A stretch of 64,000 nucleotides of DNA from IMG/VR virus record IMGVR_UViG_3300010429_001449; one strand, written 5' to 3'. The notes under the pieces are model-generated. The model worked only from the letters and a program-made list of their open reading frames with translations, was not told the DNA's origin and did no database searches. A program made the position numbers and the translations under genes. Origin of the DNA: a virus (lineage: Duplodnaviria; Caudoviricetes). Position 1 is the first letter of the stretch, and each line of letters opens with the position of its first letter. Below, in pieces: positions 1,805 through 19,745 of this stretch.

Positions 1805-1833
1805 TTGACATAGGGCAGAAAAGCGTATATACT
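1805..1833 (+). promoter_or_regulatory. Canonical sigma70-type promoter (17-nt spacer) of first sigma gene
   Basis: TTGACA 1805-1810, 17 nt, TATACT 1828-1833; RBS GGGAGA upstream of GTG 1885. Confidence 0.75.
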
Positions 1834-1884
1834 TACTTGTGTTGTGACGGTCAGACAGTCAAACACTTTTCAGGGAGAAACAAA

Positions 1885-2475
1885 GTGAAGAACGAAACAG
1901 TCAGGGAAGCGCAGAACGGGTCACGGACGGCGGTCGATGCGATAGTGGCGCAGTACGCGGATATGGCAAGCAATGCGGCGTACGGCGGTTTTGGGGCGGC
2001 GCGGTACGAAGACAAGCGCCAAGCGGCAATGGTCGGAATTCTGGAAGCTATCCAGACTTTCGACGCGGCGCGGGGCGCGGATTTTGGGACGCATGTCTAC
2101 TGGGCAATCAAGGGCGCGATCACGGTAGAATGCCGGGCGTACGCGGATAATATGCGCGACATGGTCGCTCGGGATGAAGACGGAGACGTCGCAACGGTCA
2201 CGGAAGTTAGCGCCGATCTCAATATGCTTTCACCGGACGCGGAAGCGGAAGCGAGAGAGACAAGCGCCGAAAATACAGTGAAGCTGCAGAACGCAATCGA
2301 CGCTATCAGGACGTTGAAAGATAGGGACGCGGAAGCGGTCACGCTCTATCTGGGTCTTGACTGCGGTCGGGCGCGGTCTTTCGCGGAAGTCGGGTCGATC
2401 ATGGGATTGACTCGGGAACGGGTCAGGCAGATTGTAGGACGCGGTCTGGAACAAATCAGGCAAGCTGCAGCGTGA
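1885..2475 (+). CDS. RNA polymerase sigma-70 family factor (sigma A of this window)
   Basis: Region 2-like QAAMVGILEAIQTFD..GADFGTHVYWAIKG; region 4 HTH SFAEVGSIMGLTRERVRQI; start placed at GTG after RBS. Confidence 0.9.
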   Translation: MKNETVREAQNGSRTAVDAIVAQYADMASNAAYGGFGAARYEDKRQAAMVGILEAIQTFDAARGADFGTHVYWAIKGAITVECRAYADNMRDMVARDEDGDVATVTEVSADLNMLSPDAEAEARETSAENTVKLQNAIDAIRTLKDRDAEAVTLYLGLDCGRARSFAEVGSIMGLTRERVRQIVGRGLEQIRQAAA

Positions 2476-2539
2476 CGCGGGGCAATGGTGAAGCGGCGCA
2501 AAAACGGGATGCTACGGAGCATCCCGTTTTTATGTACGG

Positions 2540-2985
2540 GTCAGGCGCGGAGCGGGTCACGGTCACGGCGGCGCGGGGCAATGGTCAGGCGGTCACGCGG
2601 GGCGGCGGTCAGGGGGTCAGGCAATCACGGAAGCGGGGCGGCGGCGGTCAGGCAATACGGGGCGCGGGGCGGGGTCAGGGGCAAACAAGCGGGGCGGGGC
2701 AATGGTTCAGGGTCAGGCGGCGCGGAACGGGTCACGGCGGGGCGCGTACGCGGTCAGGCGGTCAGGGTCAGGCGCGGGGCGGAACGGGGGGTCAGGGTCA
2801 GGCGGTCACGGCGGAACGGAAGCGGGGCGCGGTCAGTCAGGCGCGGCGGGGTCACGGAACGGACGGCGGCGGGGTCAGGCGCGGGGGTCAGGGAGACGGA
2901 GTCGAGCGGGTCACGCGGCGGGGCGGCGAGGGGCGGTCAGCCGAGCGAGAAGCGATTGATAATCGCCAGGAGGGGCCAGGTCAGC
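2540..2985 (+). repeat. Second GGTCA-rich, G-skewed repeat block
   Basis: Repeated GGTCAGG/GGTCACG and GCGGAACGG; no credible coding signal. Confidence 0.75.
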
Positions 2986-3376
2986 GGGGCGAGAGACGCC
3001 AGGACGCGGCGCGGGGGCGTTCGGGTCGGAACCAGGACGGGGGCCAGGACGGGATCAGCCGGAGGCATAATGCGATTGATAATCGTCACGCCGGACGGGG
3101 GCCGGGGCGGGTTCCAGGGGGCAGACTAGGTCGGCGGCAGAACGGGGCATACCGGCAGGGGCAATCCTAACGGACGGGGGCAAGCGGGGGCGGCAGAACG
3201 GCGGCGGGGCAAGTGGGGCGGGGTCAGGTGGCAGAACGGCAGGGGGCAATGGTACGTGGCGGGGCGGGGCATTGCAGGGCGGCGGGGGGCAGAATGCAGA
3301 ACGGGGCGCGGGCCGGGCGCGGGGGCGCAGTACAGGCCGTTGTCGACCGCCTGCAATGGTAGCCGATTAAAACAAC

Positions 3377-3404
3377 AAAGCCCCGTCCGCAGACAGGGCT
3401 TTGT
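3377..3404 (-). terminator. Intrinsic terminator
   Basis: AAAGCCC...GGGCTTT hairpin just downstream of minus-strand gene ending 3427. Confidence 0.65.
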
Positions 3405-3426
3405 TACTCCGCGCAGTTGCCAGCGG

Positions 3427-3795
3427 CTATTCCTCTTCGCGTTGCGCGGCGCATTCTTCGCAAGCGGCTTCAGCCGCTTCAACGCAATCGCCGAAACAAC
3501 CCAGGCGGAATTCGTTGTTTTCCGTATCGTAGACAATGGTCGTCTGGTACGTATCGCCGACGTTCAGCACAACCGCAACACAATCAAGCCAGTAGGAATC
3601 GACGTGACTGTGTTCGTGACGTACCGCGTCAGTCCCGTAGCAATGGGTGAGCGTAGCGATCTCGTTCATCACGGTATCCGGGCCGTTATGGCAACCCTTA
3701 ACCGCCTTGAGCATTGCCAGAACCTTATCCGCCTCTTCACTTGTCAGTTGAAGGGCCGTCATCAGTTCCGCCTTATCGATGCTTACCTTAGCCAC
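3427..3795 (-). CDS. Hypothetical phage protein
   Basis: GTG after GGGAGA RBS and own promoter cassette; LNVGDTYQTTIVYD motif. Confidence 0.8.
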   Translation of the reverse strand: MAKVSIDKAELMTALQLTSEEADKVLAMLKAVKGCHNGPDTVMNEIATLTHCYGTDAVRHEHSHVDSYWLDCVAVVLNVGDTYQTTIVYDTENNEFRLGCFGDCVEAAEAACEECAAQREEE

Positions 3796-4032
3796 TTTGC
3801 AATCTCCCTGAAAAGTAATGGTTGACTGTCCAGCACTATCCTTAATATAACAGAACATTAGGCTATGTCAAGAGACTTTCCAGAAATATTTTTACGCAAT
3901 AACAAGCGGCGCGGAACGGGACAGGTTAGACAACGGTAGGGCGGGGCGCGGAACAAGCGGCGGCGGGGCGGGGCTATAGCCTGGCGCGGCAAGACAACAG
4001 ACAGGTCCGTAGCGGGAGACGACAGACGTTGC

Positions 4033-4137
4033 GCGGAGCGGTAGCGGAGCGGTAGCGGAGCGGTAGCGGAGCGGTAGCGGAGCGGTAGCGGAGCGGTAGC
4101 GGAGCGGTAGCGGAGCGGTAGCGGAGCGGTAGCGGAG
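4033..4137 (+). repeat. Perfect tandem repeat (GCGGAGCGGTA) x9.5
   Basis: Nine identical 11-mers 4033-4131 plus a partial unit. Confidence 0.97.
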
Positions 4138-4446
4138 AACCGGACGCGGAACGGAGTCCGGCGGGGCGCGGGGACGCGGACGCCACGCCGATTGATAATC
4201 CCGTCGGATACGCCAGGAGGAGCCAGGAGGAGCTAGGCCAGGGAAGAGCCAGGAGGCAGGATTGATAATCGTCAGCCCTCTGGCGCGGTGCGGACGCGGC
4301 GGCCAGGGGGTCAAGCGTCGGCGGAATCGGCGGTCGGCGGGGCCGGGGCCGGGCTGTACGGGGTCGGGGGTAGGGTCGGGGCGTCCGTACAAAAAGAACC
4401 CCCGGCGGGGTTAGGGCCGGGGGTTTGTGGCCGTGCGAGTCAATGG

Positions 4447-4758
4447 TCAGGCCGTGACGCCAAACAACGTATCGACCAGCGTATCCGTTGCGGCGGACAG
4501 TGCGATGACGGCGGATTGCGCGTGACGCGCAATCCAGCGGCGGGCCGCGTCTTCACTCTCGAATTGCTTTTCAGCGGAGATTACGCGGCGGACGCGGCCA
4601 CGGTCAAAGTCGGCGGAATAACCGTAGCGTTGCGCCGTGATTGTGCGGTCATAGTTCAAGCGGAGTTCCCCGATAGAAACATCACCAGCGAAGCAATCCC
4701 GCGAATCACCAAGCCTAACAAGGGGTCTGTTGATCGACCACGAAAACGATACTGACAT
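4447..4758 (-). CDS. Hypothetical protein
   Basis: ATG with GAGGAG RBS; terminator-like hairpin at 4391-4428. Confidence 0.75.
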   Translation of the reverse strand: MSVSFSWSINRPLVRLGDSRDCFAGDVSIGELRLNYDRTITAQRYGYSADFDRGRVRRVISAEKQFESEDAARRWIARHAQSAVIALSAATDTLVDTLFGVTA

Positions 4759-4809
4759 GGTAAGCTCCTCGAAAAGAAACGGGGACCGGTCTCCCAGTCC
4801 CCTAGATGG

Positions 4810-5097
4810 TTAGCTAAGGCCACTGGCCACTTCAATGGCACGGCGGCCTTGTTCCTCAATGGCCTCGTCCAGCGGGTCATAGAGACTCCGCAGATAGGCG
4901 CGGGCCGCGTCCGGGTCTTCCCGCTCTAACAGACGGACGCGGCGCATAAGATCGTTGCGCCGTGACAGTGCGACGCCGACGTCGGCGTCTTCGGCCACAA
5001 TAGCCTGCAGCAGGGCGTTGTCGCGTCCACAGACAACGTCGTAACCGATTTCATGATCCAAGCGGTTAAGCTCATCGTAAAGGTCGAAAAGTTCCAC
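4810..5097 (-). CDS. Hypothetical protein (acidic, helical)
   Basis: GTG after cassette RBS TTTTTGGGAGA. Confidence 0.8.
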   Translation of the reverse strand: MELFDLYDELNRLDHEIGYDVVCGRDNALLQAIVAEDADVGVALSRRNDLMRRVRLLEREDPDAARAYLRSLYDPLDEAIEEQGRRAIEVASGLS

Positions 5098-5682
5098 GGT
5101 TATCTCCCAAAAAGGTTGTCTGTCCACTACACTTAATATAACAGCAATCAAGCCAATGTCAAGAGAGTTTCCGAGATTATTTCAGATATTTTTACGCAAT
5201 GGTTGATAGGCCGTTTCTCAGACTGGTCTCCGCGTGATAGTCGGTGTGTTGCGTTCCGCACTAACAGACCGCGCAGACGCGGTTGTCGACCGGAATCCGG
5301 TAGCCGCGTCAATAGAGATACAAGCGGTCATTACAAATCCGGTAGACGGCGGGGGAAGTCTTTTCGGGGTCGGCGCGGCCTGGGTGCGGCGGCGCGGCGG
5401 CCCGCTTCGACGTCGACGTCTATTGAAAATCGCGATCCCCAGCAGGGAGGGGGACGAGCAACGGGCTTGGACTCCGTCGCAGACTCAGTCAACAGCGGGG
5501 GCAGATTGAAAATCGCCACACCCCGCCAGGCAAGCGGACGAGCGGGGCGGCGCACTAGGGCGCAAGGGCGGGATACATCTAGGCGGGGCCGGGGTTAGGG
5601 TTCAAGCATTGCAAGGGACGGATAAACGGCCAATGTTGCGCGGGACGATATGTCCCGCGCAACAATGGTTGACGCGCAACGG

Positions 5683-5907
5683 CTACAGAACGAACGGCTG
5701 CAGCCGCGCACGGCGGACAATCCACGTCCTGACATATTGCGCGGGAAGGGCCGCGCCGGGGGTATGCTCGTCCTGATAGGCGGATAACGGTATCCATGTA
5801 TCATCCCGGCTATCGGCGGAAAATGCCAGCTTGATTGCCTTATCGCTGACTTCCAGTACTTCCGCGTATGCGCGTACCCGCGCCCAATCCTGAGTGATGG
5901 TAGTCAT
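5683..5907 (-). CDS. Hypothetical small protein
   Basis: ATG after GCCGGAG RBS of second-class leader; SDKAI..WIPLS pattern. Confidence 0.75.
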   Translation of the reverse strand: MTTITQDWARVRAYAEVLEVSDKAIKLAFSADSRDDTWIPLSAYQDEHTPGAALPAQYVRTWIVRRARLQPFVL

Positions 5908-5913
5908 AGTTGA

Positions 5914-5980
5914 CTCCGGCGGGGGGTTAATTTGTCCCGCTCTATAAGACGATACGGACGGCGGAAAAGAATCTGACAAG
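5914..5980 (-). promoter_or_regulatory. Second-class promoter/leader, copy 1
   Basis: CTTGTCAGATT-N8-CCGTCCGTAT..TATAGAG..CGGGA..TTAACCCCCCGCCGGAG; matches 7245-7313. Confidence 0.7.
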
Positions 5981-6120
5981 CGGCACGGAATTAAAATCCC
6001 CGTCGAGAACCGATAGGGGGCGCGTACAGACAACGAAGCTATAGCATACGCGGCGGAACATCAACGCGGCGGCGGACGCAATGCGGCGCACTGTACGCCG
6101 CGCAATGGTCGAGTTAAAAC

Positions 6121-6152
6121 AAAAAAGCCCTATCCAGCGGATAGGGCTTTTT
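6121..6152. terminator. Bidirectional intrinsic terminator
   Basis: AAAAAAGCCCTATCC-AGC-GGATAGGGCTTTTT. Confidence 0.85.
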
Positions 6153-6163
6153 GTATTCCGCCG

Positions 6164-6532
6164 TTATGGTTCGCGGGGGTCGACCGCTTCCATAACAAGT
6201 TCCTTGCCCAAGCTGACATAGTAGAGAACCGCCGTAGCTTCCGCGCCGTCAATCCACGCATAGTTACGCGGACGATACGTTACGGCGCGGCGGTTCAATG
6301 CCTTGCTGATAAGGCACAGAAGCAATCCCTTGCCATCATCCCGGAACGTAATGGTGCAGGGGATATGCCGCAGATAGAAACGGGGTCCGCGTCCGCGGTC
6401 CGCTTCCGTTGAAACGTCCAGCTTTTCCGCGTCCGCATGCGCTTCAAGCGCAGTTTCAACAGCGGCCACGACCTCGTCAATGGTCATGCTAGACGTTACG
6501 TTGACTTCGATGTTTTCCGTTGCAATCGTCAT
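6164..6532 (-). CDS. Hypothetical protein
   Basis: ATG after cassette RBS; terminator downstream. Confidence 0.8.
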   Translation of the reverse strand: MTIATENIEVNVTSSMTIDEVVAAVETALEAHADAEKLDVSTEADRGRGPRFYLRHIPCTITFRDDGKGLLLCLISKALNRRAVTYRPRNYAWIDGAEATAVLYYVSLGKELVMEAVDPREP

Positions 6533-6855
6533 TCTGACTTCTCCCGAAAAGAGGAATGTTGTCCGCGTCACTATCCTTAATATAACAGCACAGCGGCCTA
6601 TGTCAAGAGATTTTCCAGAAATATTTTTACGCAAAGACAAGCGGCGGCGGGACGGGGTCGGGACGGGAACGGACGGCGGGTATGCAGTTTGCGCGAAGGG
6701 CGGGACGGTTGCCTAGACAACGGCGGGGCGGCGGAGACTATCCCCCGGCGGAGCAACCGCAAGACGCAGTCGCGCCGCGACGCCGCCGGGGGTCGACCGC
6801 CTGGCGGGAGCCGATTGATAATCGCGCCCCACCTGGAGGGATCAGCCCACTCTGC

Positions 6856-6915
6856 GCAAAATATTATGCTTAAAAGTGTGTTAAACTTCGCACTGTTTTA
6901 AGCATAATATTTTGC
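6856..6915. repeat. 60-bp AT-rich inverted repeat element, copy 1
   Basis: GCAAAATATTATGCTTAAAA-N20-TTTTAAGCATAATATTTTGC, perfect 20-bp arms; second copy at 30575-30634. Confidence 0.92.
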
Positions 6916-6986
6916 TTAGCGACGAGGCGGGGGCTTGGAAATGTGCGGTCGGGGGCCGGGTCGTCTGCGCCAGGGCGGGGTCTGGC

Positions 6987-7238
6987 TTATTTGCGCCGTC
7001 GTTTCTTGTCGGCGGCGCATCGCTGGCAGTAATAATAACCGTCCGGGCCATACCAGACCATGTCGGGAGTTAAGTCCGGTTCTCCGCAATGGTCACAACT
7101 GAGACGTTGCGAAGCGCAACATTGCTCAACGCAACGCTCCGCTTGCCAGAACGTATCATACCGCGTTCCGCAATAGGAACACGTACAGACGCGCCCGTCA
7201 ACCGTTATCCTTCCGTCCTGAGTAACATAAGTCTTCAT
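6987..7238 (-). CDS. Small Cys-rich (zinc-finger-like) protein
   Basis: CSYC, CxxxC, CDHC, CQRC motifs; RBS GCCGGAG. Confidence 0.75.
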   Translation of the reverse strand: MKTYVTQDGRITVDGRVCTCSYCGTRYDTFWQAERCVEQCCASQRLSCDHCGEPDLTPDMVWYGPDGYYYCQRCAADKKRRRK

Positions 7239-7244
7239 CCGAAT

Positions 7245-7313
7245 CTCCGGCGGGGGTTAAGTTTTCCCGCGTCTCTATAGACCTATACGGACGGGCGCTA
7301 CAAATCTGACAAG
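7245..7313 (-). promoter_or_regulatory. Second-class promoter/leader, copy 2
   Basis: Shares all conserved blocks with 5914-5980. Confidence 0.7.
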
Positions 7314-7416
7314 AGAGTCACAGAATCTTTTTCGGGCCGCGCCGGGCGCAATGGTACACAAAAAAAAGCCCGCAACCCCTTGCGGGGTCTGCAGGCTTGT
7401 TTTGTTCGCTGTACGG

Positions 7417-7707
7417 CTACAGTTCCACCAACAGACAACCCTTGCCCGCTTGGGCGGGTAATGGTTCAACCGCCGCCCACAGTGCGCGGGCCGCACCGGG
7501 GTTGCGGGAGTCTGTTCCCGACCAGAACGTCACGACTTCCCGACGGTCATCATTGTAAATGGCGACTTCACCGTCCAGTTCCGGGCCGTTGCCTCTGACA
7601 GCAACCGTCGCCTTGCGAAACGCGGCTGCAGCGTCCACTTTCTCCGGGTGTTCCGTGCGCGAGACTACCGCGCCGAAACGGTCTTTTGTTTCAACTGAGT
7701 ACATCAT
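7417..7707 (-). CDS. Hypothetical protein
   Basis: ATG after AAGGGAGA; follows the 7715-7978 gene; terminator at about 7359-7404. Confidence 0.75.
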   Translation of the reverse strand: MMYSVETKDRFGAVVSRTEHPEKVDAAAAFRKATVAVRGNGPELDGEVAIYNDDRREVVTFWSGTDSRNPGAARALWAAVEPLPAQAGKGCLLVEL

Positions 7708-7714
7708 TTCTCCC

Positions 7715-7978: not shown

Positions 7979-8372
7979 GTTTCGATCTCCCAAAAAGAAT
8001 CTGGAATGTCCTGCACTACTGTTAATATAACAGCGGCGCAATCAATGTCAAGAGTATTTTCTGAAATATTTTGCGAGTGTGCGGGGCTTAGCGGAAAGTG
8101 TGCGGGCCTAGCCGTAAGAGTGTGCGCCGTGCGCGAAGACGTGCGCGGGGCCGGGCCTAGCCGAGCGGCGCAGAACGGGGGCCGGTTGGAAATCGCTACC
8201 CGGTACCGGGGGCGAGACGACGAGTCGCCGCGCCAGGATAATCGAGAGGGCGCGGGTCGGATTGGAAATCACGTGCCCTACCAGGCGGGGGCGGGGCCGC
8301 GACAACTGGATTTGTAACCCTGACAACCCGATTTGTAGAGCGGGGGGAATTGCCGGAGCAATGGTACAAGAG

Positions 8373-8400
8373 AAAAGCCCCGGAGAGTATCCGGGGCTTT
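8373..8400 (-). terminator. Intrinsic terminator
   Basis: AAAAGCCCCGGA-GAGTA-TCCGGGGCTTT. Confidence 0.8.
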
Positions 8401-8708: not shown

Positions 8709-8895
8709 TGTCCAGTCTCCCGAAAAAAGGTTTGAAGTCCAGCACTACCGTTAATATAACAGCGGGCCGCGCAATGTCAAGAGTCTTTTTCCAGAATCTT
8801 AGAGATTTCTTTTTGAGCAATGGTCAAGGGCGTACAGCCGTTAAACGACAAAGCCCCGGTTTAGGGCCGGGGCTTTGCGTAGTGCTGTCTGTAGG

Positions 8896-9267: not shown

Positions 9268-9633
9268 CGTTCCGTCTCCACAAAAGAAATGAATGTCTGT
9301 CACTACTGTTATTATAACAGCACGGCGTCCAGCGTCAAGAGAGTATTTCCGAAGATTCATCCTATTTCCGCGACGCCGGGAGACGGCCTGAGTTCGGGCA
9401 GCGAGACGGCGAGACGCTGACACCCAGTTGTCAGGGCCGGGCGGGGCCGAGGGCGGCGATTGATAATCGAGGCACTGAGGGCGGGTCGGGGGCGGAAATC
9501 CGGCGGCGTTGCTCGACGAAGAGCGGGGATTGATAATCGCGTCCCTCCCCCGGCGCGGGGCCGGGGCCGTTAAATGAACCCGGCCCGTCCGGAAAGTCCG
9601 GAGCGGGCCGGGAGAATGTCGTTACGCGGGCCG

Positions 9634-9909: not shown

Positions 9910-10268
9910 GGCGTCATTCTCCCAAAAAAGGTTGTCTGTCCTGCACTACCCTTAATATAACGGCGGGCCGTTCAATGTCAAGAGTCTTTTTTGTGTTGAC
10001 TGCGAAATACTTTTGACGGGCCGTATAAGGGCCGCGACGGGCCGCTATCCGGCAATGGTCCTGATATGCTCTAGCGGGCCGTTATGGGCCGTTATGGGCC
10101 GTTGCCGGGCCGCAAGGCGCAAGGCGCAATAAACGCCGCTATCGGGCCGCGCAACGGGCCGCTAAAAAAAAAATCCCGGAATTCCCGGAAAAGAGTCTTG
10201 ACATAGGCGGAATTGCTGTTATATTAAGGGTAGTGCTGGACAGACAACCTTTTTGGGAGAATGACAGA

Positions 10269-10832
10269 ATGACAGAGAACGAAACAATCAGGGCCGCGCA
10301 AAGCGGCGACAAAGGCGCAATGGACGCGCTGGTCGAAAAGTACACTCCGCTTGCAATGAGACTGGCGCTAGGCGGATTCGGCAAGGCGTCAAAGGCGGAC
10401 AAAAAGCAAGCCGCTTTGACGGGATTGCTTGACGCGATCCATACCTTTGACGAGACAAAGGCCAATGGCGGCGCATTCGGAACGCATGCGTACTGGACAA
10501 TCAAAGGCGCTGTTACGGTCGAATGCCGCAACTACGCCAAGCCGTTAGAGAACGCCGTTACGTCGGATGACGAATTGGCGACGGAAGTCTACGCCGATCC
10601 GGACGGGATATCTCCGGCGAAAAACGCCGAACGCAACGAAGATATCGCAAGGGCCGTTGCCAGCCTGGACAAGGCGACGGAACGGGAACGGGAAGCAACG
10701 CGCTTGTTCCTCGGGCTGGACAATGAGCTTGACCAAAGGTCATTGGTTGAAGTCGCCGGGATGATGAATGTTTCCCGGCAACGCGCAAAGCAACTGGTCG
10801 ACAAGGGCCTTGCGGCGATGCGGGCCGCGTAA
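10269..10832 (+). CDS. RNA polymerase sigma-70 family factor (sigma B; paralog of 1885-2475)
   Basis: FGTHAYWTIKGAVTVECRNYA aligns with sigma A; region 4 SLVEVAGMMNVSRQRAKQL. Confidence 0.9.
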   Translation: MTENETIRAAQSGDKGAMDALVEKYTPLAMRLALGGFGKASKADKKQAALTGLLDAIHTFDETKANGGAFGTHAYWTIKGAVTVECRNYAKPLENAVTSDDELATEVYADPDGISPAKNAERNEDIARAVASLDKATEREREATRLFLGLDNELDQRSLVEVAGMMNVSRQRAKQLVDKGLAAMRAA

Positions 10833-10842
10833 CAAACAACTA

Positions 10843-10891: not shown

Positions 10892-11566
10892 ATGGTTGAC
10901 TTCAAAGACATAATCGAATGCGATTTGGTCAAGCGGGTGATGGAAGTTGCCGCAGTCGGCAATCACTCATTACTGTTGTTCGGGCCGCACGATTACGGCA
11001 AGACTCTTTGCCTGCAGGCAATGGCGGGCCTAACCGACGTCGACAACGTCGGGCCAGTGCAGGATATGACCGCCGCAAAGCAACGGGCCTTGCGGAATAG
11101 GCTTGACCGTCACGAACGGACAATAGTTGCGGAAATCGTGCCGTGCCCTTGCGGGAACTACTGCAACGCGCATGCGGTATGCCGTTGCTCCGCAGTAGCA
11201 ATCCAGCGATACCGCGCAAAGCTAATGGACACGGTGCGGAGTTTCGACGCCGTGGTCGGGATACGACGCCCTATGCCGGAAGCAATGGCGCGGGTCCGTT
11301 GGGATACAGAGGATACGGAAACCGTCAAGGCGCGGGTTATGGCCGCGAAGGGTATCCCGACGCCGTCGGGGTTGTCTCTTGACGCCAGCGATATCGTATC
11401 AATGGCGGTGCGCCAAGCGGGAATGACGCCGAAACAAGTTGTCATTGCCAAAGCAATCGGCGAAAGCGTTGCGCGGCTTGACGGCAAGGCGACGGTGGAA
11501 GTCTTCCATATGAGCGAAGCGATCCAGTACGTGCTCGGGTTCAACAACATATGGGGAAGTCTGTAG
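10892..11566 (+). CDS. Minimal ComM/YifB (Mg-chelatase-like AAA+) protein, internally deleted
   Basis: DFKDI..KRVMEVAAVGNHSLLLFGP..GKT, PCPCG..CRCS..IQRY, C-terminal VARLDG..HMSEAIQY; lacks N-terminal Lon-like domain and Walker B segment. Confidence 0.8.
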   Translation: MVDFKDIIECDLVKRVMEVAAVGNHSLLLFGPHDYGKTLCLQAMAGLTDVDNVGPVQDMTAAKQRALRNRLDRHERTIVAEIVPCPCGNYCNAHAVCRCSAVAIQRYRAKLMDTVRSFDAVVGIRRPMPEAMARVRWDTEDTETVKARVMAAKGIPTPSGLSLDASDIVSMAVRQAGMTPKQVVIAKAIGESVARLDGKATVEVFHMSEAIQYVLGFNNIWGSL

Positions 11567-12594: not shown

Positions 12595-12700
12595 TCTCGT
12601 CTCTCCACAAAAGGTTGTTTCTGTCCGCGTCACTACTGTTATTATAACAGCGGCGCGGCCACTGTCAAGAGTTTATTTCAGGAATTCTTGACGGGTGTAC

Positions 12701-13099: not shown

Positions 13100-13499
13100 T
13101 TTCGTTTCTCCACAAAAGAAATGTCTGTCACTATCTCTAATATAACAGCGTCGCGGCCAATGTCAAGAGTCTTTCCAGAATATTTTTACGGATTTGTTTC
13201 ATCCCCCGGACGGCGGGTCGCGCAAGGCTAGGCGCGAACGGGCGGCGCGGGGTGGTAGTTTCCTGGCGGTGGTCCTGGCAGTGATCCTGGCGGTCGGGCG
13301 GCGCTCGGCGGAGCGATTGAAAATGTCGGGGGGACGGCGAACGAGGCGGTTTTCCGCGTCGGGGGCGCGGAGCGAGGGAAGGATTGGAAATCGGCGTCCC
13401 CCTGCCAGGCCAGGCCGCAACTTGGGTTGTAATCGTCGGGGGTTAAAGCAAAAAGCCCCGGCTTGTTAGGGCCGGGGCTTAGTGCCAGTGGCGGGACAA

Positions 13500-13955
13500 T
13501 CAGTCGGCTTTCAGTCGCCGACAGTGGAGAATGTCAGTATCGCGCCCGTAGCGGACGCCGTGCCAGCGTTTCCCGTCGGGGCCGATGAACCACAGATCAA
13601 GGCGCTCTCTTGCAATGTTGTGCTTTCCGTGAGTCCACGTCTTGACGCGGAACATAAGCGTGCCGGGCCAGTTCCCCACGCGGGAGACGGTCTTGTCGTT
13701 GTTGTCAGTTGCTCCGCAGACTACGCGCAAGCCGTCGGGGTTTGTGGGGGTGCGAGTTCCCGCAAAGTAGTAAAGCGTCGCCTTGCCGGTCTGACGCATA
13801 TCTTCAGCGTCACGCTTGCCGCAACACTCATAACAGACTTTCGCGCCGTCGCGGGCCACGCCGTAACCCGTGCCGCAAGAATTCGCGGGGGGTTCAATGG
13901 TCTTGCCGCAGTCCGCACAAACTACGGGGGTTGTTGTTGCCGTTGTCATGGTCAT
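13500..13955 (-). CDS. Hypothetical phage protein with Cys motifs
   Basis: CADC, CYECC, GNWPG; cassette promoter/RBS; terminator at 13450-13480. Confidence 0.85.
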   Translation of the reverse strand: MTMTTATTTPVVCADCGKTIEPPANSCGTGYGVARDGAKVCYECCGKRDAEDMRQTGKATLYYFAGTRTPTNPDGLRVVCGATDNNDKTVSRVGNWPGTLMFRVKTWTHGKHNIARERLDLWFIGPDGKRWHGVRYGRDTDILHCRRLKAD

Positions 13956-14092
13956 TGTCTCCACAAAAGGTTGATTGTCCACTATCCTTATTATAACAGT
14001 GGCCGCGCCAGCGTCAAGAGTCTTTTCAGGAATATTTCCTTAAACGCAAGCGGGGATAGTCCGCAAGGGACTATCCCCGACAATGGCCGCGC

Positions 14093-14485
14093 CTAGTCCT
14101 CGTCAGGGCGCATAAGGGTTATTACGGGTTCCCCGTTGTCGCCGGGGCCGATCATCATCTTGACCGTGTAATAGGTCTTGCGCCCGTTGTGCATGATGAG
14201 ATTGTAAAGGCGGGCGCTGTCATCGCCGCCGCGCCGCGCCGCAAGACGCCCCATATACAGAACATCCCAAAGACGCCCGTCATAGTCCTGAAAAGACTTG
14301 CTGGCGGGAATGTCTTTTATGTCCGCGTGAAGGGCCGCAGTAATGGCCACAGGAACGCGAAAGCCCGCTTCGCGGGCCGTTTCGGAAACGTCAATCAGCG
14401 TTCCGTCTTCAATGGCTTGTTCCCGCGAATAGCACGAAATCACTTCCCCGAACACGTCGCGCATTGCGTCATCATTTTCCGGCAT
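14093..14485 (-). CDS. DUF6573-like protein
   Basis: YSREQAIEDGTLIDVSETAREAGFRVPVAIT..GRLWDVL..PGDNGEPVITLMRPDED; family recalled from motif. Confidence 0.75.
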   Translation of the reverse strand: MPENDDAMRDVFGEVISCYSREQAIEDGTLIDVSETAREAGFRVPVAITAALHADIKDIPASKSFQDYDGRLWDVLYMGRLAARRGGDDSARLYNLIMHNGRKTYYTVKMMIGPGDNGEPVITLMRPDED

Positions 14486-14652
14486 GGTCTTTGTCTCCAC
14501 AAAAGGTTGATTGCCTGCCACTATCTCTATTATAACAATGGCCGCGCCAATGTCAAGAGTCTTTTTTATTTTCTATTTACGCTCTTGACACGGCCCGCGT
14601 CGCTGTTATATTAAGGGTAGTGGACAATCAACCTTTTTTGGAGAATGACGCA

Positions 14653-15018
14653 ATGACCAACAAAGAAACACAACGGGAAATACTCTGCTGTATATGGTAC
14701 GGCGAACACGCCGACCTGGACAGACTCCGCGCCGAAAAGGGCGTCGACGTCAAAGCGCCGGGATGGTGGAACATCACGCCGGGCGTCGACTTTGTTCACG
14801 CCGATATCCGCATAGGCGGGCGCGTACTCAAGACAGTCGGCGTTACGTTCTCTCTTGACGGCTACGCGCCAGCGGAACGGCCCGACGTGATAGTGTGCGC
14901 GGAAGACGGCGGTCGGACGGAATTCGAGGGTATCCCGGTTATCTGCCTGACGCCGTACATCGACAAAGACCTGGCAAGCCTGACGGACTGGGTCGGGAAG
15001 CAACCGGACAGGCCCTAG
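14653..15018 (+). CDS. Hypothetical protein
   Basis: Divergent cassette promoter at 14585 and RBS. Confidence 0.8.
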   Translation: MTNKETQREILCCIWYGEHADLDRLRAEKGVDVKAPGWWNITPGVDFVHADIRIGGRVLKTVGVTFSLDGYAPAERPDVIVCAEDGGRTEFEGIPVICLTPYIDKDLASLTDWVGKQPDRP

Positions 15019-15557
15019 TCCCCGACAGGGGGCGGCCCCGCCGAAGGGGGCGCGGGGCGAGGGGGCGATTGAAAATCGGCAGGGGGTCGGGATACGAGCG
15101 GGAACAGAGCAAACGAGAGCATCTCACGGCGTCGTTTCTCGGCTTCCTCCTGATAGCGACGAAAGCGGAGCGCGGTATCATCGTCGAGCTTAAGTTCGGG
15201 CCACTCAAGTTGCGTAGGCGTCTTTTGGGGTAGCGCGGCAGCCCCGTCTACGCGCATGAACAACGACATCGACGGCGGCAGTTCGGGCGGCGGGTGCAAG
15301 TACCACTCATGCTCCAGCCAGGCCGGGGCAGCGGCGGCAAGAGGGCTGGGGCCGTAAGTCGCACGACGGCGGCGCAAAGCCAAGTCCCGGCGAACCTCAA
15401 GGACGCCGTAGGCGTAGAACGCGAACGGCAGAGCGCACGACATAAGCGCGGCCTGCCACGAGACTTGACGGCGAAACGCCGACGCCGTCACCAAAAGCAC
15501 AGGGACGATAAGCAACACGAACAAAGAGAACTCAACGAAGAGTCGCTCGGCGAACAT
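15015..15557 (-). CDS. Possible membrane protein
   Basis: Two N-terminal hydrophobic stretches; no cassette RBS, start uncertain. Confidence 0.4.
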   Translation of the reverse strand: MFAERLFVEFSLFVLLIVPVLLVTASAFRRQVSWQAALMSCALPFAFYAYGVLEVRRDLALRRRRATYGPSPLAAAAPAWLEHEWYLHPPPELPPSMSLFMRVDGAAALPQKTPTQLEWPELKLDDDTALRFRRYQEEAEKRRREMLSFALFPLVSRPPADFQSPPRPAPPSAGPPPVGD

Positions 15558-15692
15558 CCGCGCTTTCCCGCTAGACAACATTGATAATCTTGCTCCTGTC
15601 TTGTGTTCGTTTGGAAATCGGTTTCGAGAACCCCGGCGTTTTTCGGTAAGACGCCAGGGTTGTTTTTCATTCTCCGCCGGAGCGACGCGGGG

Positions 15693-16346
15693 TTATACCG
15701 CGCCGCCCTTCTTGACGCCCTTCAACGCGGCGTCAATGGCGTCGAACAAGCCTATCGTGCGGTCGTCATTAACCAGCTTGTCGAGCGCGTCATTGAATGC
15801 CGTCCACTGAGCAACGGTCAGCTTGCTAAGTTTGTCGACGCGCCGCTCCAGAAATTCCGGCTTGTCGTCCCGAACATCATACCACTCGCTCCGCAGTTCG
15901 TCGTCACTGTCTGCGACGGCGAAGAGGGCGTCTTCCACTTCCTTCTCGTCGCGGGGGTTGTCCGGGCCGGGCAATGGCGGGAATTCGTCAAAGTATCCGG
16001 GGTCTTCAACAACGGTTCCCTTCTCTACGCAATCGTCGAGAAAGAGTCTTACGCAGTCCGCAACGCCGTCGCAACCTTCCGTATTAGCCCCGCAAGCGTT
16101 GTGCTGGCAGTCAATGTCTCTTGGCTCGTCATCAACGCCGGGGCAACGCCAGCCGAAAGACTCCGCAATAGACGGATAATCGTCGTCTGTCTGGATAAGA
16201 ACGGTGTTCTTTTCGTCGCGGGTGTTCCAGTCATAGTGCCCTTCCCCCGCTTCCGGGTTCGTTACCCTGCATATGAACAGACAGCAGGGCGCGTAGGACG
16301 GGTCACGGTCCAGCGCAATCAACGTCGTCGTCTTGGTCCTAGCCAT
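15693..16346 (-). CDS. Hypothetical acidic protein
   Basis: Cassette promoter/RBS. Confidence 0.85.
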   Translation of the reverse strand: MARTKTTTLIALDRDPSYAPCCLFICRVTNPEAGEGHYDWNTRDEKNTVLIQTDDDYPSIAESFGWRCPGVDDEPRDIDCQHNACGANTEGCDGVADCVRLFLDDCVEKGTVVEDPGYFDEFPPLPGPDNPRDEKEVEDALFAVADSDDELRSEWYDVRDDKPEFLERRVDKLSKLTVAQWTAFNDALDKLVNDDRTIGLFDAIDAALKGVKKGGAV

Positions 16347-16437
16347 GAGTCTATCTCCAAAAAAAAAGAGGTCTGTCACTACTGTTAATATAACAGCGGC
16401 CACGCCAATGTCAAGAGTCTTTTCTGTTTTTTCTGTC

Positions 16438-16585
16438 AAAAGAATAGGGGCCGGGCGGCAACCCGGCCCCAATGTCCAAGAGGACTGCCTGCAGGCTACA
16501 GGGACGGGAAACGTCCCGTTCAGAGATCAACGTACGCCGGGGAGAACCGGCCCTCTGCCCTGCCTGCGCCGTGACACTTGAGAAC
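16438..16585 (-). ncRNA. Candidate structured small RNA (about 150 nt)
   Basis: Own promoter TTGACA-N16-TATACT (16592-16619), no RBS, nested helices, ends in GGGGCCGGG/CCCGGCCCC hairpin plus TATTCTTTT. Confidence 0.6.
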
Positions 16586-16888
16586 AACCCCAGTATAACG
16601 AAGGTAAGCGGTCTGTCAAGGGGATTGGAAATCGCGCCCCCTGCCCCCGTAAACAAAAAGGGCCGCCCCGCGTCCGGAGCGGCCCTGTCCAGTCAATTAA
16701 TTTGAGACAAAAGAAAGTAAGTAGTATCACATGGTTTCCTCCCGGCAAGGCATTGTTGCCTAACAAGGCGCTGCTTGCTCCGCAACAAGGCGATCTGCTT
16801 CTCTCGCGTATTTCGAGGCGGTGCGAGTTCAACCGCCCTACTTTACACAATATCGCGCTTGTCTTGGGGTGCTTAACGCGCAGTCCTG

Positions 16889-17140
16889 TTATCTCGATTG
16901 GGGGGCTTCGCCGAAGTCCTCCACCAGGTGTTCCAACGCTCTAGCGTGATCCCACGCCAGATTGAAGGCGTGAACAAGGGTGTCATCGACGTCCCTATCC
17001 ATGTCCATGTACGACTTGGACGCGGCGTCCATAGCCTGCGAAAGGGCATCCGCCACGTCGTTAGCTACCTTAGCCTGTTCGGCAAGGCGCGTCTTGATGT
17101 CCGCTGTCTCTGGACGCTTCGGCGTCCGTACGTCCGTCAT
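16889..17140 (-). CDS. Hypothetical protein
   Basis: Cassette promoter/RBS TTTTGAGGAGA. Confidence 0.8.
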   Translation of the reverse strand: MTDVRTPKRPETADIKTRLAEQAKVANDVADALSQAMDAASKSYMDMDRDVDDTLVHAFNLAWDHARALEHLVEDFGEAPQSR

Positions 17141-17223
17141 TTTGTTCTCCTCAAAAGAAATTGGCCGTCCTACTGTTATTATAACAGCAAGACGGCCAGT
17201 GTCAAGGGAGAACCGAGAAAAGG

Positions 17224-17661
17224 TTAATCGCCGATGGCTTTGACGGTCACGATAAGCCGCTTGCCGTCGACCTTGACGGTATCCAGCACGACAGAGCCGG
17301 AGATTACCCAGTCGTTGCAACGCCGCCTATGGCACTCATCGCAGTCGCCGACGCAAGTGCGCTCGCTCAAGCCGACGCCGCCGAAGTCGGAACGGATTAC
17401 GTCCGCTTCATGCTCCGGGGTATTAGCGCTGCCGCTGACGTCGATGGCGACGGTCAGGTCCCCTTCCGCTTCCACGTAAGGGATATGGGTATGCCCCTCT
17501 TCGCTTCCGTAAGCGTAGGCAAAGCCCGAGTCCCCACTGTCCAGACTGAAGGCGTCCATGTTGTCTTCAATGGCCTGTTCCAGCGCGTAAATGGCCGCGC
17601 CGTCATCGCGGCGGTAGTCCGCCACAACTTCAACTATCTGATGGGTCTTGTTCATCGGCAT
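17224..17661 (-). CDS. Hypothetical acidic protein
   Basis: Cassette promoter/RBS. Confidence 0.8.
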   Translation of the reverse strand: MPMNKTHQIVEVVADYRRDDGAAIYALEQAIEDNMDAFSLDSGDSGFAYAYGSEEGHTHIPYVEAEGDLTVAIDVSGSANTPEHEADVIRSDFGGVGLSERTCVGDCDECHRRRCNDWVISGSVVLDTVKVDGKRLIVTVKAIGD

Positions 17662-17716
17662 GTCTCCAAAAAGGTTGACTGTCACTATCCTTAATATAAC
17701 AGCGCATTGGCCGATG

Positions 17717-18601
17717 TCAAGAGACTATTTCGGATTTCTTTTCTGAAAAGTCGTATTGCTGGAAGTCCGACGGGTTACGGTCGAGGGTGGCGGCTATACG
17801 GTTACGCGCCGCGCCTACGAATGCGGGGTCGATCTCAAAGCCGGTGAAGCTAACGCCGAGTTCGGAACACGCGAGAGCGGTTGAACCTATGCCGCAGAAG
17901 GGGTCAAGAACATGCTTGGTCTTGGCGAGGCCGTGCAACTTGATGCACGTTCGGGGCAAGGATATAGGGAACGACGCCGGATGCGGGCGGTCTTTGTCCT
18001 TTTCCTGGATCGTATCGTAGGGAAGGAACCAAGCGTTGCCCCGGCAATGCAACGGCTGTTTCGCGCCCCAGCGCTCGATGTTCGCGGGGTCGGCGTAGGG
18101 GACGCCGATTGATAATCTGTCTAGGGGCACTTCGCCCGTTTTCGTCAGGTGGAAGATGAACTCGTGGCAGGCGTTGAGGAACCGAGGGCTGTTGATTGGT
18201 TGGTAGTGGCCGTGTACGACTTCGGGAGACTTCTCGTTAGCGCCGGGGACGGCGATGGACTTCACCCACAGAATGAGGTTCTGCAACTTGAAGTACTGCC
18301 GGGCGACTTGCATGATCTCGAAGGGGCCGAGGGGACTGACGGGAACGCCGCCGATGTTGAGGAAGAAAGAGCCGTCGTCCGCTAGGCGCGAGGCCACGCA
18401 CGTCAACCAGCCGTGACACCAGTCGAGATAGTCTAGGCGGCTGATGCTGTCGTTGTAAGTGCGGTAGCCCGTTCCGACGTTGTACGGAGGGGATGTAACG
18501 ACTACGTCGTAGACCGCCGAGTCCTGTTTCATTCCGTCCACACAGTCGCCGACGATGAGGCGGTGCGTAACGCCGCCGTGCTGCAGTTCGTATGCGTTCA
18601 T
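17717..18601 (-). CDS. DNA methyltransferase, N4-C/N6-A, beta class (orphan)
   Basis: Catalytic VTSPPYN precedes SAM-binding VLDPFCGIGST; HPASFP motif. Confidence 0.93.
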   Translation of the reverse strand: MNAYELQHGGVTHRLIVGDCVDGMKQDSAVYDVVVTSPPYNVGTGYRTYNDSISRLDYLDWCHGWLTCVASRLADDGSFFLNIGGVPVSPLGPFEIMQVARQYFKLQNLILWVKSIAVPGANEKSPEVVHGHYQPINSPRFLNACHEFIFHLTKTGEVPLDRLSIGVPYADPANIERWGAKQPLHCRGNAWFLPYDTIQEKDKDRPHPASFPISLPRTCIKLHGLAKTKHVLDPFCGIGSTALACSELGVSFTGFEIDPAFVGAARNRIAATLDRNPSDFQQYDFSEKKSEIVS

Positions 18602-18615
18602 GCGCTTGGTAATCC

Positions 18616-19095
18616 TTACTTGGGGGTTGAAGTTCCAACTTTAGCGCGTCGCGCCAGTTGGCGCAACCGTTGTTTGAAAATGTCTGAGGGGGAGTCCGGG
18701 GATTTCGGCGGGCGTTCCTTTCGTTGTCGCGGGGTAGATGTTTCGCGGGTAGATGTCGAGTAATCCCAGGGCAGACAGAAGCGAGCAAAGCCGGTAATCC
18801 GTGCGCCGCGCCCGTCTTCAATGCGGTCGATCTCTTGCTTCAATGTCTTTTTCAGGGCGTCGGGAACTTTCCGGGCGCTGATATGCTCAATGGTCTCAGT
18901 GCGCCGCAAGGCGCGTAGTCCGGCCATATCGCTCTTGGTCAACTGTCCACGTATCACGTCGACGGGGCCGCAAGAACCGGTTTCCCGCGCCGCGCCCGTC
19001 TGGACCGGGACGTACACAATGTCGCCCTTGCCGACAAGTATTGCTTCAGTGGCAAGGGCGACATAGAACCGTAACCGTCCGCTGTTGTCGTTCAT
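18616..19095 (-). CDS. Hypothetical protein
   Basis: ATGA overlap with upstream sigma gene. Confidence 0.7.
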   Translation of the reverse strand: MNDNSGRLRFYVALATEAILVGKGDIVYVPVQTGAARETGSCGPVDVIRGQLTKSDMAGLRALRRTETIEHISARKVPDALKKTLKQEIDRIEDGRGARITGFARFCLPWDYSTSTRETSTPRQRKERPPKSPDSPSDIFKQRLRQLARRAKVGTSTPK

Positions 19096-19745
19096 GCTAT
19101 GGCAAGTCCGGCAACACCCTGCAGCTTGCGGAGTGCGCTTGTTTCGATCTGGCGTACCCGTTCCCGCGTAAGACCGCCTAGGGCGTTGCCTATTTCATCA
19201 AGAGTCGATGTTTGACCCCGATAGCCGTTAAGCCCGTAGCGTCGCTCCAGAACGTCCGCTTCGCGCTTAGTAAGCCGTTCCTTGATCGCGTTCGCAAGCA
19301 AGGTCGCGCTTTCGTTGAACAATGCAGACTTAGCCGGACTGCGATGGTCGACCGGGCCGTACGTATCAAACAGATAGTTGCTGATTTCACCGTGCGACAA
19401 GCCTATCTCGCTGACGGGGATTTCACAAACCCCGTCGTTTTCAGCGACGGCGCGACGTACCCGAGCAACAAGCCATTGCACGGCGTACGTCGTGAAACGC
19501 CCTTCCGCTTCATTGTACTCGCTTCCCTTGTCTCCGGGCGTAACGATATGGTCTATCGCTTCCGCCAAGCCAAGCAAAGCCGCCGCTTCGCGGTCCTCGT
19601 ACGCCAAACCGCTGTTGTTGAAACGATGCGCGACGCTTCGCGCAAGGTCATAGTAAGCTACAGCGATTTCGTTCCGCGCCGCCTTGTCGCCCGCACGTAT
19701 GCGAGCAATCAACGCCTGTTCCTGTTCAACTGTCAGTCGCGCCAT
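19092..19745 (-). CDS. RNA polymerase sigma-70 family factor (sigma C; RpoD/RpoS-like regions 2 and 4)
   Basis: GDKAARNEI..LARSVAHRF..GLAEAI..RFTTYAVQW; LTKREADVLERRYGL..TLDEIG..LTRERVRQIETSALRKL. Confidence 0.92.
   Translation of the reverse strand: MARLTVEQEQALIARIRAGDKAARNEIAVAYYDLARSVAHRFNNSGLAYEDREAAALLGLAEAIDHIVTPGDKGSEYNEAEGRFTTYAVQWLVARVRRAVAENDGVCEIPVSEIGLSHGEISNYLFDTYGPVDHRSPAKSALFNESATLLANAIKERLTKREADVLERRYGLNGYRGQTSTLDEIGNALGGLTRERVRQIETSALRKLQGVAGLAIA

What the first reader, a model, noticed from the sequence alone, without database searches (positions are those of the whole stretch)
1805..19745. Three phage sigma factors and a possible 17-to-16-nt spacer switch
Seen: three compact (about 190-220 aa) sigma70-family genes. 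A (1885) and B (10269) are paralogs. A and C keep the RpoD-like recognition helix TRERVRQI, while B has SRQRAKQL. Sigma A is driven by a canonical 17-nt promoter; apart from the tentative nrdD promoter, every other TTGAC promoter I measured is 16 nt. Known: the TRERIRQI helix reads TTGACA. Inference: host RNAP first makes sigma A, whose short region 2-4 linker favours 16-nt spacing and redirects polymerase to phage cassettes; B may read a different class.
Basis: inference. Interest (0 to 1): 0.72.

Follow-up and report, generated by a model that had tools for sequence, protein, structure and literature searches.

The report
Phage sigma trio, two promoter spacings
An uncultured 269-kb phage with no RNA polymerase of its own carries three small sigma factors and about 85 near-identical promoters with a 16-base gap, while one sigma gene alone keeps a 17-base promoter in all three known relatives; this points to a wired-in transcription cascade whose exact wiring is still open.

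Summary
The window encodes three sigma-70-family proteins with only two domains: A at 1885-2475 (+), B at 10269-10832 (+) and C at 19092-19745 (-). Exact TTGACA-N16-TATAHT occurs 43 times in the window, against 0.00 expected. The 17-nt form occurs once, in front of sigma A.

Across the whole genome (269 kb, assembles as a circle, myovirus-like, from anaerobic digesters) there are 87 sites at 16 nt, allowing one mismatch per hexamer. The structural module has essentially none.

Only two other phage lineages carry this sigma family. In both, the A-type gene again has TTGACA-17-TATACT without the G at -14, while the B-type and C-type genes have 16-nt promoters. So two promoter classes exist and the exception is conserved.

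- The -35-reading helix TRERVRQI is not conserved in A orthologs (SFQRVEQI, APGSAKYA), although TTGACA is.
- B and C have the same two-domain build as A.
- The 16-nt promoters match the full primary-sigma consensus, including the TG motif.

Which polymerase form reads which class remains undecided. I rate this a new variant of a known kind, the phage sigma cascade.

The parts
1805..1833 (+). 17-nt promoter of the sigma A gene: TTGACA-17-TATACT, with no G at -14
   Evidence: the only exact 17-nt match in the window; 0.01 expected. The same architecture stands before the A-type genes of two other phage lineages.
1885..2475 (+). Sigma A gene, 196 aa: two-domain sigma-70-family protein with region 4.2 helix TRERVRQI
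   Evidence: AlphaFold2 model: sigma-2 at residues 1-89, a low-confidence linker of about 27 aa, sigma-4 at 117-195, and no sigma-3.
10198..10225 (+). 16-nt promoter of the sigma B gene: TTGACA-16-TATATT with GCTGT before the -10 hexamer
10269..10832 (+). Sigma B gene, 187 aa: paralog of A, helix SRQRAKQL. It is followed by a gene with a Mg-chelatase-like (AAA+) domain at 10892-11566.
   Evidence: A metatranscriptome contig covers 10334-10837.
19092..19745 (-). Sigma C gene, 217 aa: helix TRERVRQI, sigma-2 carries an insertion, no folded sigma-3
   Evidence: The ortholog P0158 (51% identity) has helix SHERVRQI and the same gene neighbours.
19788..19815 (-). 16-nt promoter of the sigma C gene, back to back with a 16-nt promoter at 19863-19890 (+)
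3844..3871 (-). 16-nt family promoter
5135..5162 (-). 16-nt family promoter
6579..6606 (-). 16-nt family promoter
8024..8051 (-). 16-nt family promoter
8753..8780 (-). 16-nt family promoter
9311..9338 (-). 16-nt family promoter (TTGACG variant)
9954..9981 (-). 16-nt family promoter
12641..12668 (-). 16-nt family promoter
13139..13166 (-). 16-nt family promoter
13990..14017 (-). 16-nt family promoter (TTGACG variant)
14529..14612 (.). Divergent pair of 16-nt promoters: 14529-14556 (-) and 14585-14612 (+)
16387..16414 (-). 16-nt family promoter
16592..16619 (-). 16-nt promoter with a TATACT -10 hexamer
17178..17205 (-). 16-nt family promoter
17693..17720 (-). 16-nt family promoter
20376..61122 (.). 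They are mostly TATAAT up to about 48 kb and TATACT beyond about 56 kb.
41477..41505 (-). nrdD promoter: TTGACT-17-TATAGT, an ordinary-looking 17-nt promoter
   Evidence: NrdD identified.

Best explanation
The window is the early arm of a phage of about 269 kb with a contractile tail. It has no RNA polymerase genes and steers the host enzyme with three two-domain sigma proteins.

Its non-structural genes hang on about 85 copies of one stereotyped promoter: TTGACA, exactly 16 nt ending in G(-14)T(-13), then TATA(A/T/C)T followed by A. I call this family P16.

The A-type sigma gene is deliberately kept outside that family, on an ordinary 17-nt promoter without the TG motif (P17).

I read this as a sigma cascade with two promoter classes, used by different forms of the polymerase:
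- Inferred: unmodified host holoenzyme enters at the 17-nt promoters.
- Inferred: the strict 16-nt family is the regulon of a phage-altered holoenzyme.
- Shown by comparison: whatever reads the -35 element of the 16-nt family must have an unchanging TTGACA-reading helix. That fits sigma C or the host's primary sigma, not the drifting A/B helix.
- Inferred: the A/B paralogs therefore have small, fast-evolving target sets, most likely the promoters of the structural module, which lacks P16. Alternatively they act through their conserved sigma-2 on the extended -10 region.

How the product of a 17-nt gene would switch on the 16-nt family is an open gap in this model.
For: - P16: 43 exact sites in the window against 0.00 expected, and 87 genome-wide with almost none at other spacings. 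They sit a median of 42 nt before start codons.
- P17 at the A-type gene recurs in three lineages whose sigmas are only 37-48% identical and whose spacer sequences differ. The B-type and C-type genes and 21 of 22 other promoters in phage 2 are 16 nt.
- Good 17-nt promoters number 6 in intergenic DNA against about 0.6 expected. They include nrdD and a TnpB mobile element, that is, ordinary or foreign genes.
- The structural module (sheath, tape measure, portal, capsid protein; 68-148 kb) has essentially no P16.
- No RNA polymerase genes were detected.
- Relatives that share the capsid protein (64-74% identity, records of 80-156 kb) have neither the sigmas nor P16, so the two travel together.
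- Two-domain sigmas are known for strict spacer and hexamer requirements, unlike primary sigma (PMC6411747).
- The C lineage keeps (T/S)(R/H)ERVRQIE.
Against: - P16 carries the complete primary-sigma consensus, including TG at -15/-14. That motif is normally read by sigma region 3.0, which none of the three phage sigmas has. Host holoenzyme should therefore fire P16 unaided.
- The sigma B and sigma C genes themselves sit behind P16, so the only protein made from the conserved P17 is the A type, and its helix cannot read TTGACA in phages 2 and 3.
- The sigma-2 residues of all three differ from those that read TATAAT in primary sigma (alignment and my residue mapping).
- A-versus-B orthology rests on a 7-residue indel, gene neighbours and promoter type. 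The maximum-likelihood tree is unresolved.
- The host is unknown, so its preferred spacing is inferred only.
- The sigma-P16 co-occurrence is a single evolutionary event.
Confidence: 0.4

Rival explanations
1. Conventional layout. Every TTGACA promoter, at 16 or 17 nt, is read by the host's primary sigma as an early or middle promoter. The three phage sigmas redirect the polymerase only to a few late promoters in the structural module, possibly with a TGTTACAYT-like -10 element. The sigma A gene keeps its 17-nt, TG-less promoter so that it escapes whatever later shuts off or tunes the 16-nt family.
For: - P16 matches the perfect -35, TG and -10 of primary sigma.
- Characterised phage sigmas (SPO1 gp28 and gp34, T4 gp55) read sequences unlike the host consensus (my knowledge; SPO1 cascade in PMC13401047).
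- The A/B helix drifts between phages while TTGACA does not.
- The structural module lacks P16.
- TACACT and GTTACAC are mildly enriched in P16-free intergenic DNA (6 against 1.3 expected, 5 against 0.9).
Against: - It does not explain why 80 or more promoters never drift to 17 nt, although primary sigma tolerates plus or minus 1.
- It does not explain why the A-type gene keeps 17 nt in three lineages.
- Three sigmas for a handful of weakly conserved late promoters seems excessive.
- No clear late motif emerged.
- Capsid-related phages without sigmas also lack P16.
Confidence: 0.33
2. Host polymerase makes sigma A from the 17-nt promoter. Sigma A then reads TTGACA through its TRERVRQI helix, and its short linker imposes 16-nt spacing on all the other promoters.
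For: In this phage sigma A does carry the canonical helix, and it is the only sigma gene behind a 17-nt promoter. Two-domain sigmas demand a fixed spacer (PMC6411747).
Against: - A-type orthologs have SFQRVEQI and APGSAKYA, yet their phages keep TTGACA-16 promoters.
- B and C have the same two-domain build.
- Two-domain SigH prefers 17 bp (PMC6411747), so a short linker does not predict 16.
Confidence: 0.12
3. Template topology rather than sigma identity. The 16-nt spacer tunes host-sigma promoters to the twist or supercoiling state of the phage DNA. The 17-nt sigma A promoter responds differently as that state changes during infection.
For: Spacer length sets the supercoiling response of sigma-70 promoters (PMC9303308, PMC8695583). 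This model needs no special sigma specificity.
Against: Nothing in the sequence speaks to topology. The cited model works least well for 16-nt spacers, by its own abstract. It gives the three sigmas no role.
Confidence: 0.07

Closest known systems
Bacillus phage SPO1 sigma cascade (host SigA, then gp28, then gp33/gp34)
   Same: A large lytic phage without its own polymerase, with many strong early promoters, in which phage-encoded sigmas take over the host core in steps (PMC13401047 abstract; my knowledge).
   Different: In SPO1 the promoter classes differ in hexamer sequence. Here the only clearly separable classes share TTGACA and a TATA-type -10 and differ in spacer length and the G at -14. 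The three proteins here have no close sequence relatives in sequenced phages.
ECF (group 4) sigma factors
   Same: Two-domain build: sigma-2, linker, sigma-4. They match TIGR02937 above its cut-off (53-57 bits against 42.9). Strict spacer and hexamer requirements are typical of this class (PMC6411747).
   Different: The region 4.2 helices of A and C are RpoD-like rather than ECF-like. The promoters are not of the AAC/CGT type. No adjacent anti-sigma gene was recognised.
Sigma factors of jumbo phages that lack a polymerase (group 2 of Iyer et al. 2021, PMC7824862)
   Same: A genome over 200 kb with no polymerase genes, where sigma genes are presumed to recruit the host core.
   Different: Replication uses a family A polymerase and the capsid protein is not gp23-type. 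There are three compact sigmas, two of them paralogs. The family is restricted to three metagenomic lineages.
Sigma of phiEco32 and phage 7-11, with promoter classes inferred from sequence (PMC4331800)
   Same: A compact phage sigma with host-type early promoters, where the wiring is inferred by promoter census.
   Different: In those phages the phage-sigma promoters have their own consensus. Here no second consensus was found.

Membership tests
Sigma-70 family | Region 2 (binds core and the -10 element): Pfam Sigma70_r2 | tested here: met
   A scores 29.5 bits and C 24.0 bits against a cut-off of 24. B scores 21.4 bits, just below, but is 48% identical to A.
Sigma-70 family | Region 4 helix-turn-helix (-35 element and beta-flap): Pfam Sigma70_r4 | tested here: met
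   42.6, 26.7 and 45.6 bits against a cut-off of 24.1. The best solved relatives are the SigA region 4 of Bacillus and Clostridioides.
Sigma-70 family | Binds polymerase core and directs promoter-specific initiation | not testable with these tools
   Needs biochemistry. I ran no complex prediction.
Primary (group 1/2) sigma, RpoD/SigA | Regions 1.2 and 3.0/3.1 present; full-length match to the RpoD models | tested here: not met
   The best RpoD models score 62-80 bits against cut-offs of 354-572. The AlphaFold2 models show no sigma-3 domain.
Primary (group 1/2) sigma, RpoD/SigA | The -10-reading residues of region 2.3/2.4 (E. coli Y430, W433, W434, Q437, T440) | tested here: not met
   A has H, W, A, G, T at these positions. 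C has Y, Q, W, A, R. This comes from the alignment to SigA and; the residue mapping is my own.
ECF / group 4 sigma | Two-domain build (sigma-2 and sigma-4 joined by a linker) | tested here: met
   TIGR02937 scores above its cut-off for all three.
ECF / group 4 sigma | ECF-type promoter (AAC in the -35, CGT in the -10) and a cognate anti-sigma gene alongside | tested here: inconclusive
   No such motif is enriched. The neighbouring genes have no recognisable family.
16-nt promoter family as functional promoters | Over-represented, on the sense strand, at a fixed distance before genes | tested here: met
16-nt promoter family as functional promoters | Mapped transcription start sites | not testable with these tools
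   Only assembled RNA contigs were available.

The most novel reading that the evidence does not exclude
Spacer length alone, 17 versus exactly 16 nt, with the same TTGACA and a TATA-type -10, separates host-holoenzyme promoters from phage-sigma promoters. In addition, the three sub-families of the 16-nt promoter correspond to the three phage sigmas: TATATT with TAGTG, TATAAT with TAGGACAG, and TATACT. That would be a temporal programme encoded by geometry and by one -10 position, rather than by different hexamers.
Probability: 0.2. Interest if true: 0.8.

Novelty: new variant of a known kind. Interest (0 to 1): 0.55.

Why it matters
Phage sigma cascades are textbook, but in the known cases each class has its own hexamers. 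Here a whole 269-kb genome runs on one consensus promoter with an invariant 16-nt spacer, and a single sigma gene is held at 17 nt across diverged relatives.

If spacer length is the discriminator, it would be a new and very economical way for a virus to separate 'host-readable' from 'phage-only' promoters. It would also supply a natural set of orthogonal parts made of compact sigmas and their promoters.

If instead the host reads everything, the system is still a clean case for asking why selection holds spacing so rigidly. It also defines a previously undescribed jumbo-phage lineage from anaerobic digesters and sediments.

Tried and rejected
- **Close relatives by DNA or protein.** Searching sequenced phages gave nothing nearer than about 28% (sigma) or 33% (polymerase) identity. 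IMG/VR pattern scans with sigma A or with the family alignment found nothing. The word-based protein search found only sigma A itself.
- **IMG/VR scan with the promoter pattern.** It returned only single chance-like hits in unrelated records.
- **Promoter-plus-leader pattern in 185,000 genomes.** Two hits, in a Dehalococcoidales and an Anaerolineae bin. About 0.5 is expected by chance, and neither genome holds the sigma family. This is not evidence for a host.
- **Host from the NrdD or TnpB relatives.** The taxa are mixed. Genome relatives cannot be drawn for a virus record.
- **Second promoter motif.** K-mer enrichment in 104 intergenic segments without a 16-nt promoter gave only ribosome sites and tRNA pieces. 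Sigma-70-like sites in the structural region do not exceed shuffles (8 against 10.3).
- **Fourth sigma.** The region-4 hit at genome 151.9 kb is a plain helix-turn-helix protein.
- **Maximum-likelihood tree to prove A/B orthology.** Unresolved.
- **Metatranscriptome run X4.** Its contigs cover the sigma B gene and several small early genes. There is no cover on sigma A or sigma C, which proves nothing, and contigs cannot show transcript starts.
- **Fold search of the sigma A model.** It only confirms a sigma fold.
- **Inverted repeat around the -10 as an operator.** Real only in one sub-family, with weak covariation.


Full report
**What the window is.** The window is bases 1158-65157 of a 268,817-base IMG/VR virus record. 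An independent assembly joins the record's last base to its first across 63 extra bases, so the genome assembles as a circle of about 268.9 kb. CheckV's 77% completeness estimate is therefore too low.

The DNA occurs in anaerobic-digester metagenomes from three studies. The record encodes a tail sheath, tape measure, portal and a capsid-type virion protein in a minus-strand block at 68-148 kb. The window itself holds a family A DNA polymerase, DnaB-like helicase, primase, RecA-like protein, NrdD and nine to ten tRNAs. No multisubunit or T7-like RNA polymerase domain was detected, with the caveat that very divergent polymerases could be missed. The host is unknown.

**The three sigma genes.**
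- A: 1885-2475 (+), 196 aa
- B: 10269-10832 (+), 187 aa
- C: 19092-19745 (-), 217 aa

All three are sigma-70-family proteins by Pfam, PHROGs and NCBIfam. They are the only frames in the genome with a sigma-2 domain.

A and B are 46-48% identical.

AlphaFold2 models show a four-helix sigma-2, a low-confidence linker (about 27 residues in A, about 40 in C) and a sigma-4. Neither model has a sigma-3 domain or region 1. They match the general sigma70-ECF model above its cut-off and the RpoD models far below theirs.

Their best solved relatives are the region 4 of Firmicute SigA. The region 2.3/2.4 positions that read TATAAT in primary sigma are largely replaced. That mapping is my own, made.

**The promoters.** Exact TTGACA-N16-TATAHT occurs 43 times in the window against 0.00 in shuffles. 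The 17-nt version occurs once, at 1805-1833, in front of sigma A.

Genome-wide, with one mismatch allowed per hexamer, there are 87 sites at 16 nt, 5 at 17 nt and 3 or fewer at each other spacing. The consensus is cTTGACA, then 11 variable bases, then GCTGT, TATA(A/T/C)T and A. This gives a T at -15 and G at -14 as in an extended -10 element, plus a conserved T at -13 and A at -6. The sites lie on the sense strand a median of 42 nt before start codons, followed by a conserved leader.

Three sub-families are visible:
- TATATT or TATAAT followed by TAGTG (window 3.8-20 kb, including the sigma B and C genes)
- TATAAT followed by TAGGACAG (20-48 kb)
- TATACT (from 56 kb onward and the whole 148-263 kb arm)

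The structural block has essentially none.

Among intergenic sense-strand sites scoring at least 10 of 12, six have 17 nt, against about 0.6 expected:
- the sigma A gene
- a weak site at window 35531
- nrdD (window 41505)
- two sites in the structural block (genome 106832 and 140683)
- TTGACA-17-TATACT before a TnpB/IS605-type gene at genome 247.9-249.0 kb

**Relatives.** An exhaustive profile search of 1.8 billion representative proteins found only four true relatives of the A/B family, at E 1e-53 to 1e-32. The next hit is at 1e-20. Their contigs define two further phage lineages from other metagenomes.

Phage 2 also has a sigma C ortholog (51% identity) with the same neighbours: a 154-aa gene and an N6/N4 methylase.

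A 7-residue indel splits the family into an A type (A, P0010, P0011) and a B type (B, P0009, P0012). B and P0009 are both followed by the Mg-chelatase-like gene. The maximum-likelihood tree inside the family is unresolved, so orthology rests on the indel, gene neighbours and promoter type.

All three A-type genes have TTGACAtagg-17-TATACT without a G at -14, and their spacer sequences differ. All B-type and C-type genes have 16-nt promoters. So do 21 of 22 other consensus promoters on a 20.6-kb contig of phage 2, all 14 on a second, overlapping 13-kb contig of that phage, and most on the short phage 3 contigs. The exception is therefore conserved, not a one-off.

Phages that share the capsid protein at 64-74% identity (records of 80-156 kb, GC 46-67%) have no sigma gene. 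They have 0-1 consensus promoters per record. The sigma trio and the 16-nt family therefore appear together in the jumbo lineage. This is a single evolutionary event, and those records are fragments.

The two-class architecture, and the special status of the sigma A gene, are supported. The proposed reader of the 16-nt class is not.

The region 4.2 helices are as follows:

| Type | Phage 1 | Phage 2 | Phage 3 |
|---|---|---|---|
| A | TRERVRQI | SFQRVEQI | APGSAKYA |
| B | SRQRAKQL | SRERARQL | TSARIGQL |
| C | TRERVRQI | SHERVRQI | not recovered |

TTGACA is invariant in both promoter classes of all three phages. A protein that reads 80 or more TTGACA boxes should keep its reading residues. 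The A/B family does not, while the C lineage and any host primary sigma do.

The linker argument also fails. All three sigmas are two-domain proteins, and M. tuberculosis SigH, a solved two-domain sigma, is most active at 17 bp (PMC6411747).

Finally, the 16-nt promoters match all three primary-sigma elements, including TG. That motif is normally read by region 3.0, which the phage sigmas lack. By established knowledge, host holoenzyme should use such promoters.

**Weighing the alternatives.**

Points that favour a phage-altered polymerase at the 16-nt family:
- The rigidity of spacing. Two-domain sigmas are strict about spacer length and primary sigma is tolerant (PMC6411747).
- The conserved 17-nt entry point.
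- 17 nt on ordinary or foreign genes.
- The co-occurrence of the sigmas with the 16-nt family.
- The absence of any other enriched promoter motif that three sigmas could serve.

Points that favour plain host reading:
- The perfect primary-sigma consensus.
- Sigma B and sigma C themselves sit behind 16-nt promoters.
- The only product of the conserved 17-nt promoter has a drifting helix.
- The structural module clearly needs some other promoter type. Candidates such as TGTTACACT are only mildly enriched and are not significant in a consensus scan.

I put about 0.40 on a cascade in which the two classes are used by different polymerase forms, with sigma C or the host sigma reading the -35 element. 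None of these steps is shown; only the anatomy and its conservation are.

**Expression.** One metatranscriptome holds small contigs over the sigma B gene (10334-10837) and several neighbouring small genes. This is compatible with transcription in nature. Contigs cannot give transcript starts or levels, and the lack of cover on A and C says nothing.

**Verdict.** The system is a phage sigma cascade of a known kind with an unusual, conserved spacer-length dichotomy. It is a new variant of moderate to high interest, and directly testable in vitro.

Noticed in passing
window 1-1700, 2547-2923, 4033-4137: The sigma A gene sits inside about 4 kb of G-rich degenerate short repeats (GGTCAsG and GGGGAC units; 73% GC; GC skew +0.35). 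At 4033-4137 there is a perfect 11-nt tandem repeat (GCGGAGCGGTA, 9.5 copies). The 212-aa ORF called at 2532-3170 lies in these repeats, has no family hit, and may not be a gene. The region could be an origin, a packaging site or a protein-binding array.
   Followed up: partly
window 10040-10190; L015, L016, L020, L023 upstream of the sigma genes: The A-type and B-type sigma genes of all three phages are preceded by GC-rich repeats (GGGCCG or GCGCAAGG units) and then a run of 7-10 A just before the promoter. The C-type genes are not.
   Followed up: partly
window, about 40 nt after each 16-nt promoter (for example 10226-10268): A conserved leader, TAGTG(A/G)CAGACA...AACCTTTTGTGGAGA, links the promoter to the start codon. 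It is also present in phages 2 and 3 and, set further from the -10, behind the 17-nt promoters. Promoter, leader and ribosome site look like one repeated cassette.
   Followed up: partly
window 32000-45000, for example 33489-33530 and 42754-42795 (-): In one promoter sub-family the -10 hexamer is the centre of a near-perfect inverted repeat of about 31 bp (CTGTCCTGCTGTTATAATAACAGTAGGACAG). There is modest arm-to-arm covariation between copies (permutation p = 0.001). This could be an operator or a hairpin.
   Followed up: partly
window 45019-47343 and 47768-47841 (-): A cluster of nine tRNA genes. ARAGORN also calls a tRNA-like gene with a four-base anticodon (gtac), which Rfam does not confirm.
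   Followed up: no
genome 247934-249095 (outside the window; L167:2934-4095): A TnpB/IS605-type gene (HTH_OrfB, OrfB_IS605 and Cas12f1-like TNB domains) with its own TTGACA-17-TATACT promoter and almost no leader. Its nearest relatives are only about 57% identical.
   Followed up: partly
window 16701-16916: The deepest metatranscriptome contig (depth about 40, against 1-7 elsewhere) covers the 3' end of a small gene and the non-coding stretch before the promoter at 16619. It could be a stable RNA.
   Followed up: no
window 13500-13949 (-) and 10892-11566 (+): A 149-aa protein gives a weak hit, below the cut-off, to the DksA/TraR zinc finger. That fold binds the polymerase secondary channel. 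Separately, the gene after sigma B carries a Mg-chelatase-like AAA+ N-terminal domain and is conserved after the B-type gene of phage 2.
   Followed up: no
whole record (L009 against the genome ends): The record is listed as linear and 77% complete, but a second assembly closes it into a circle with 63 extra bases. Nearly all genes from 22 kb to 263 kb are on the minus strand.
   Followed up: yes
L168-L196 (IMG/VR): The capsid-type protein (genome 107784-109154) has about 30 relatives at 61-81% identity, in records with GC from 46% to 67%. The structural module is therefore shared with a much wider group of smaller phages that lack the sigma genes.
   Followed up: partly
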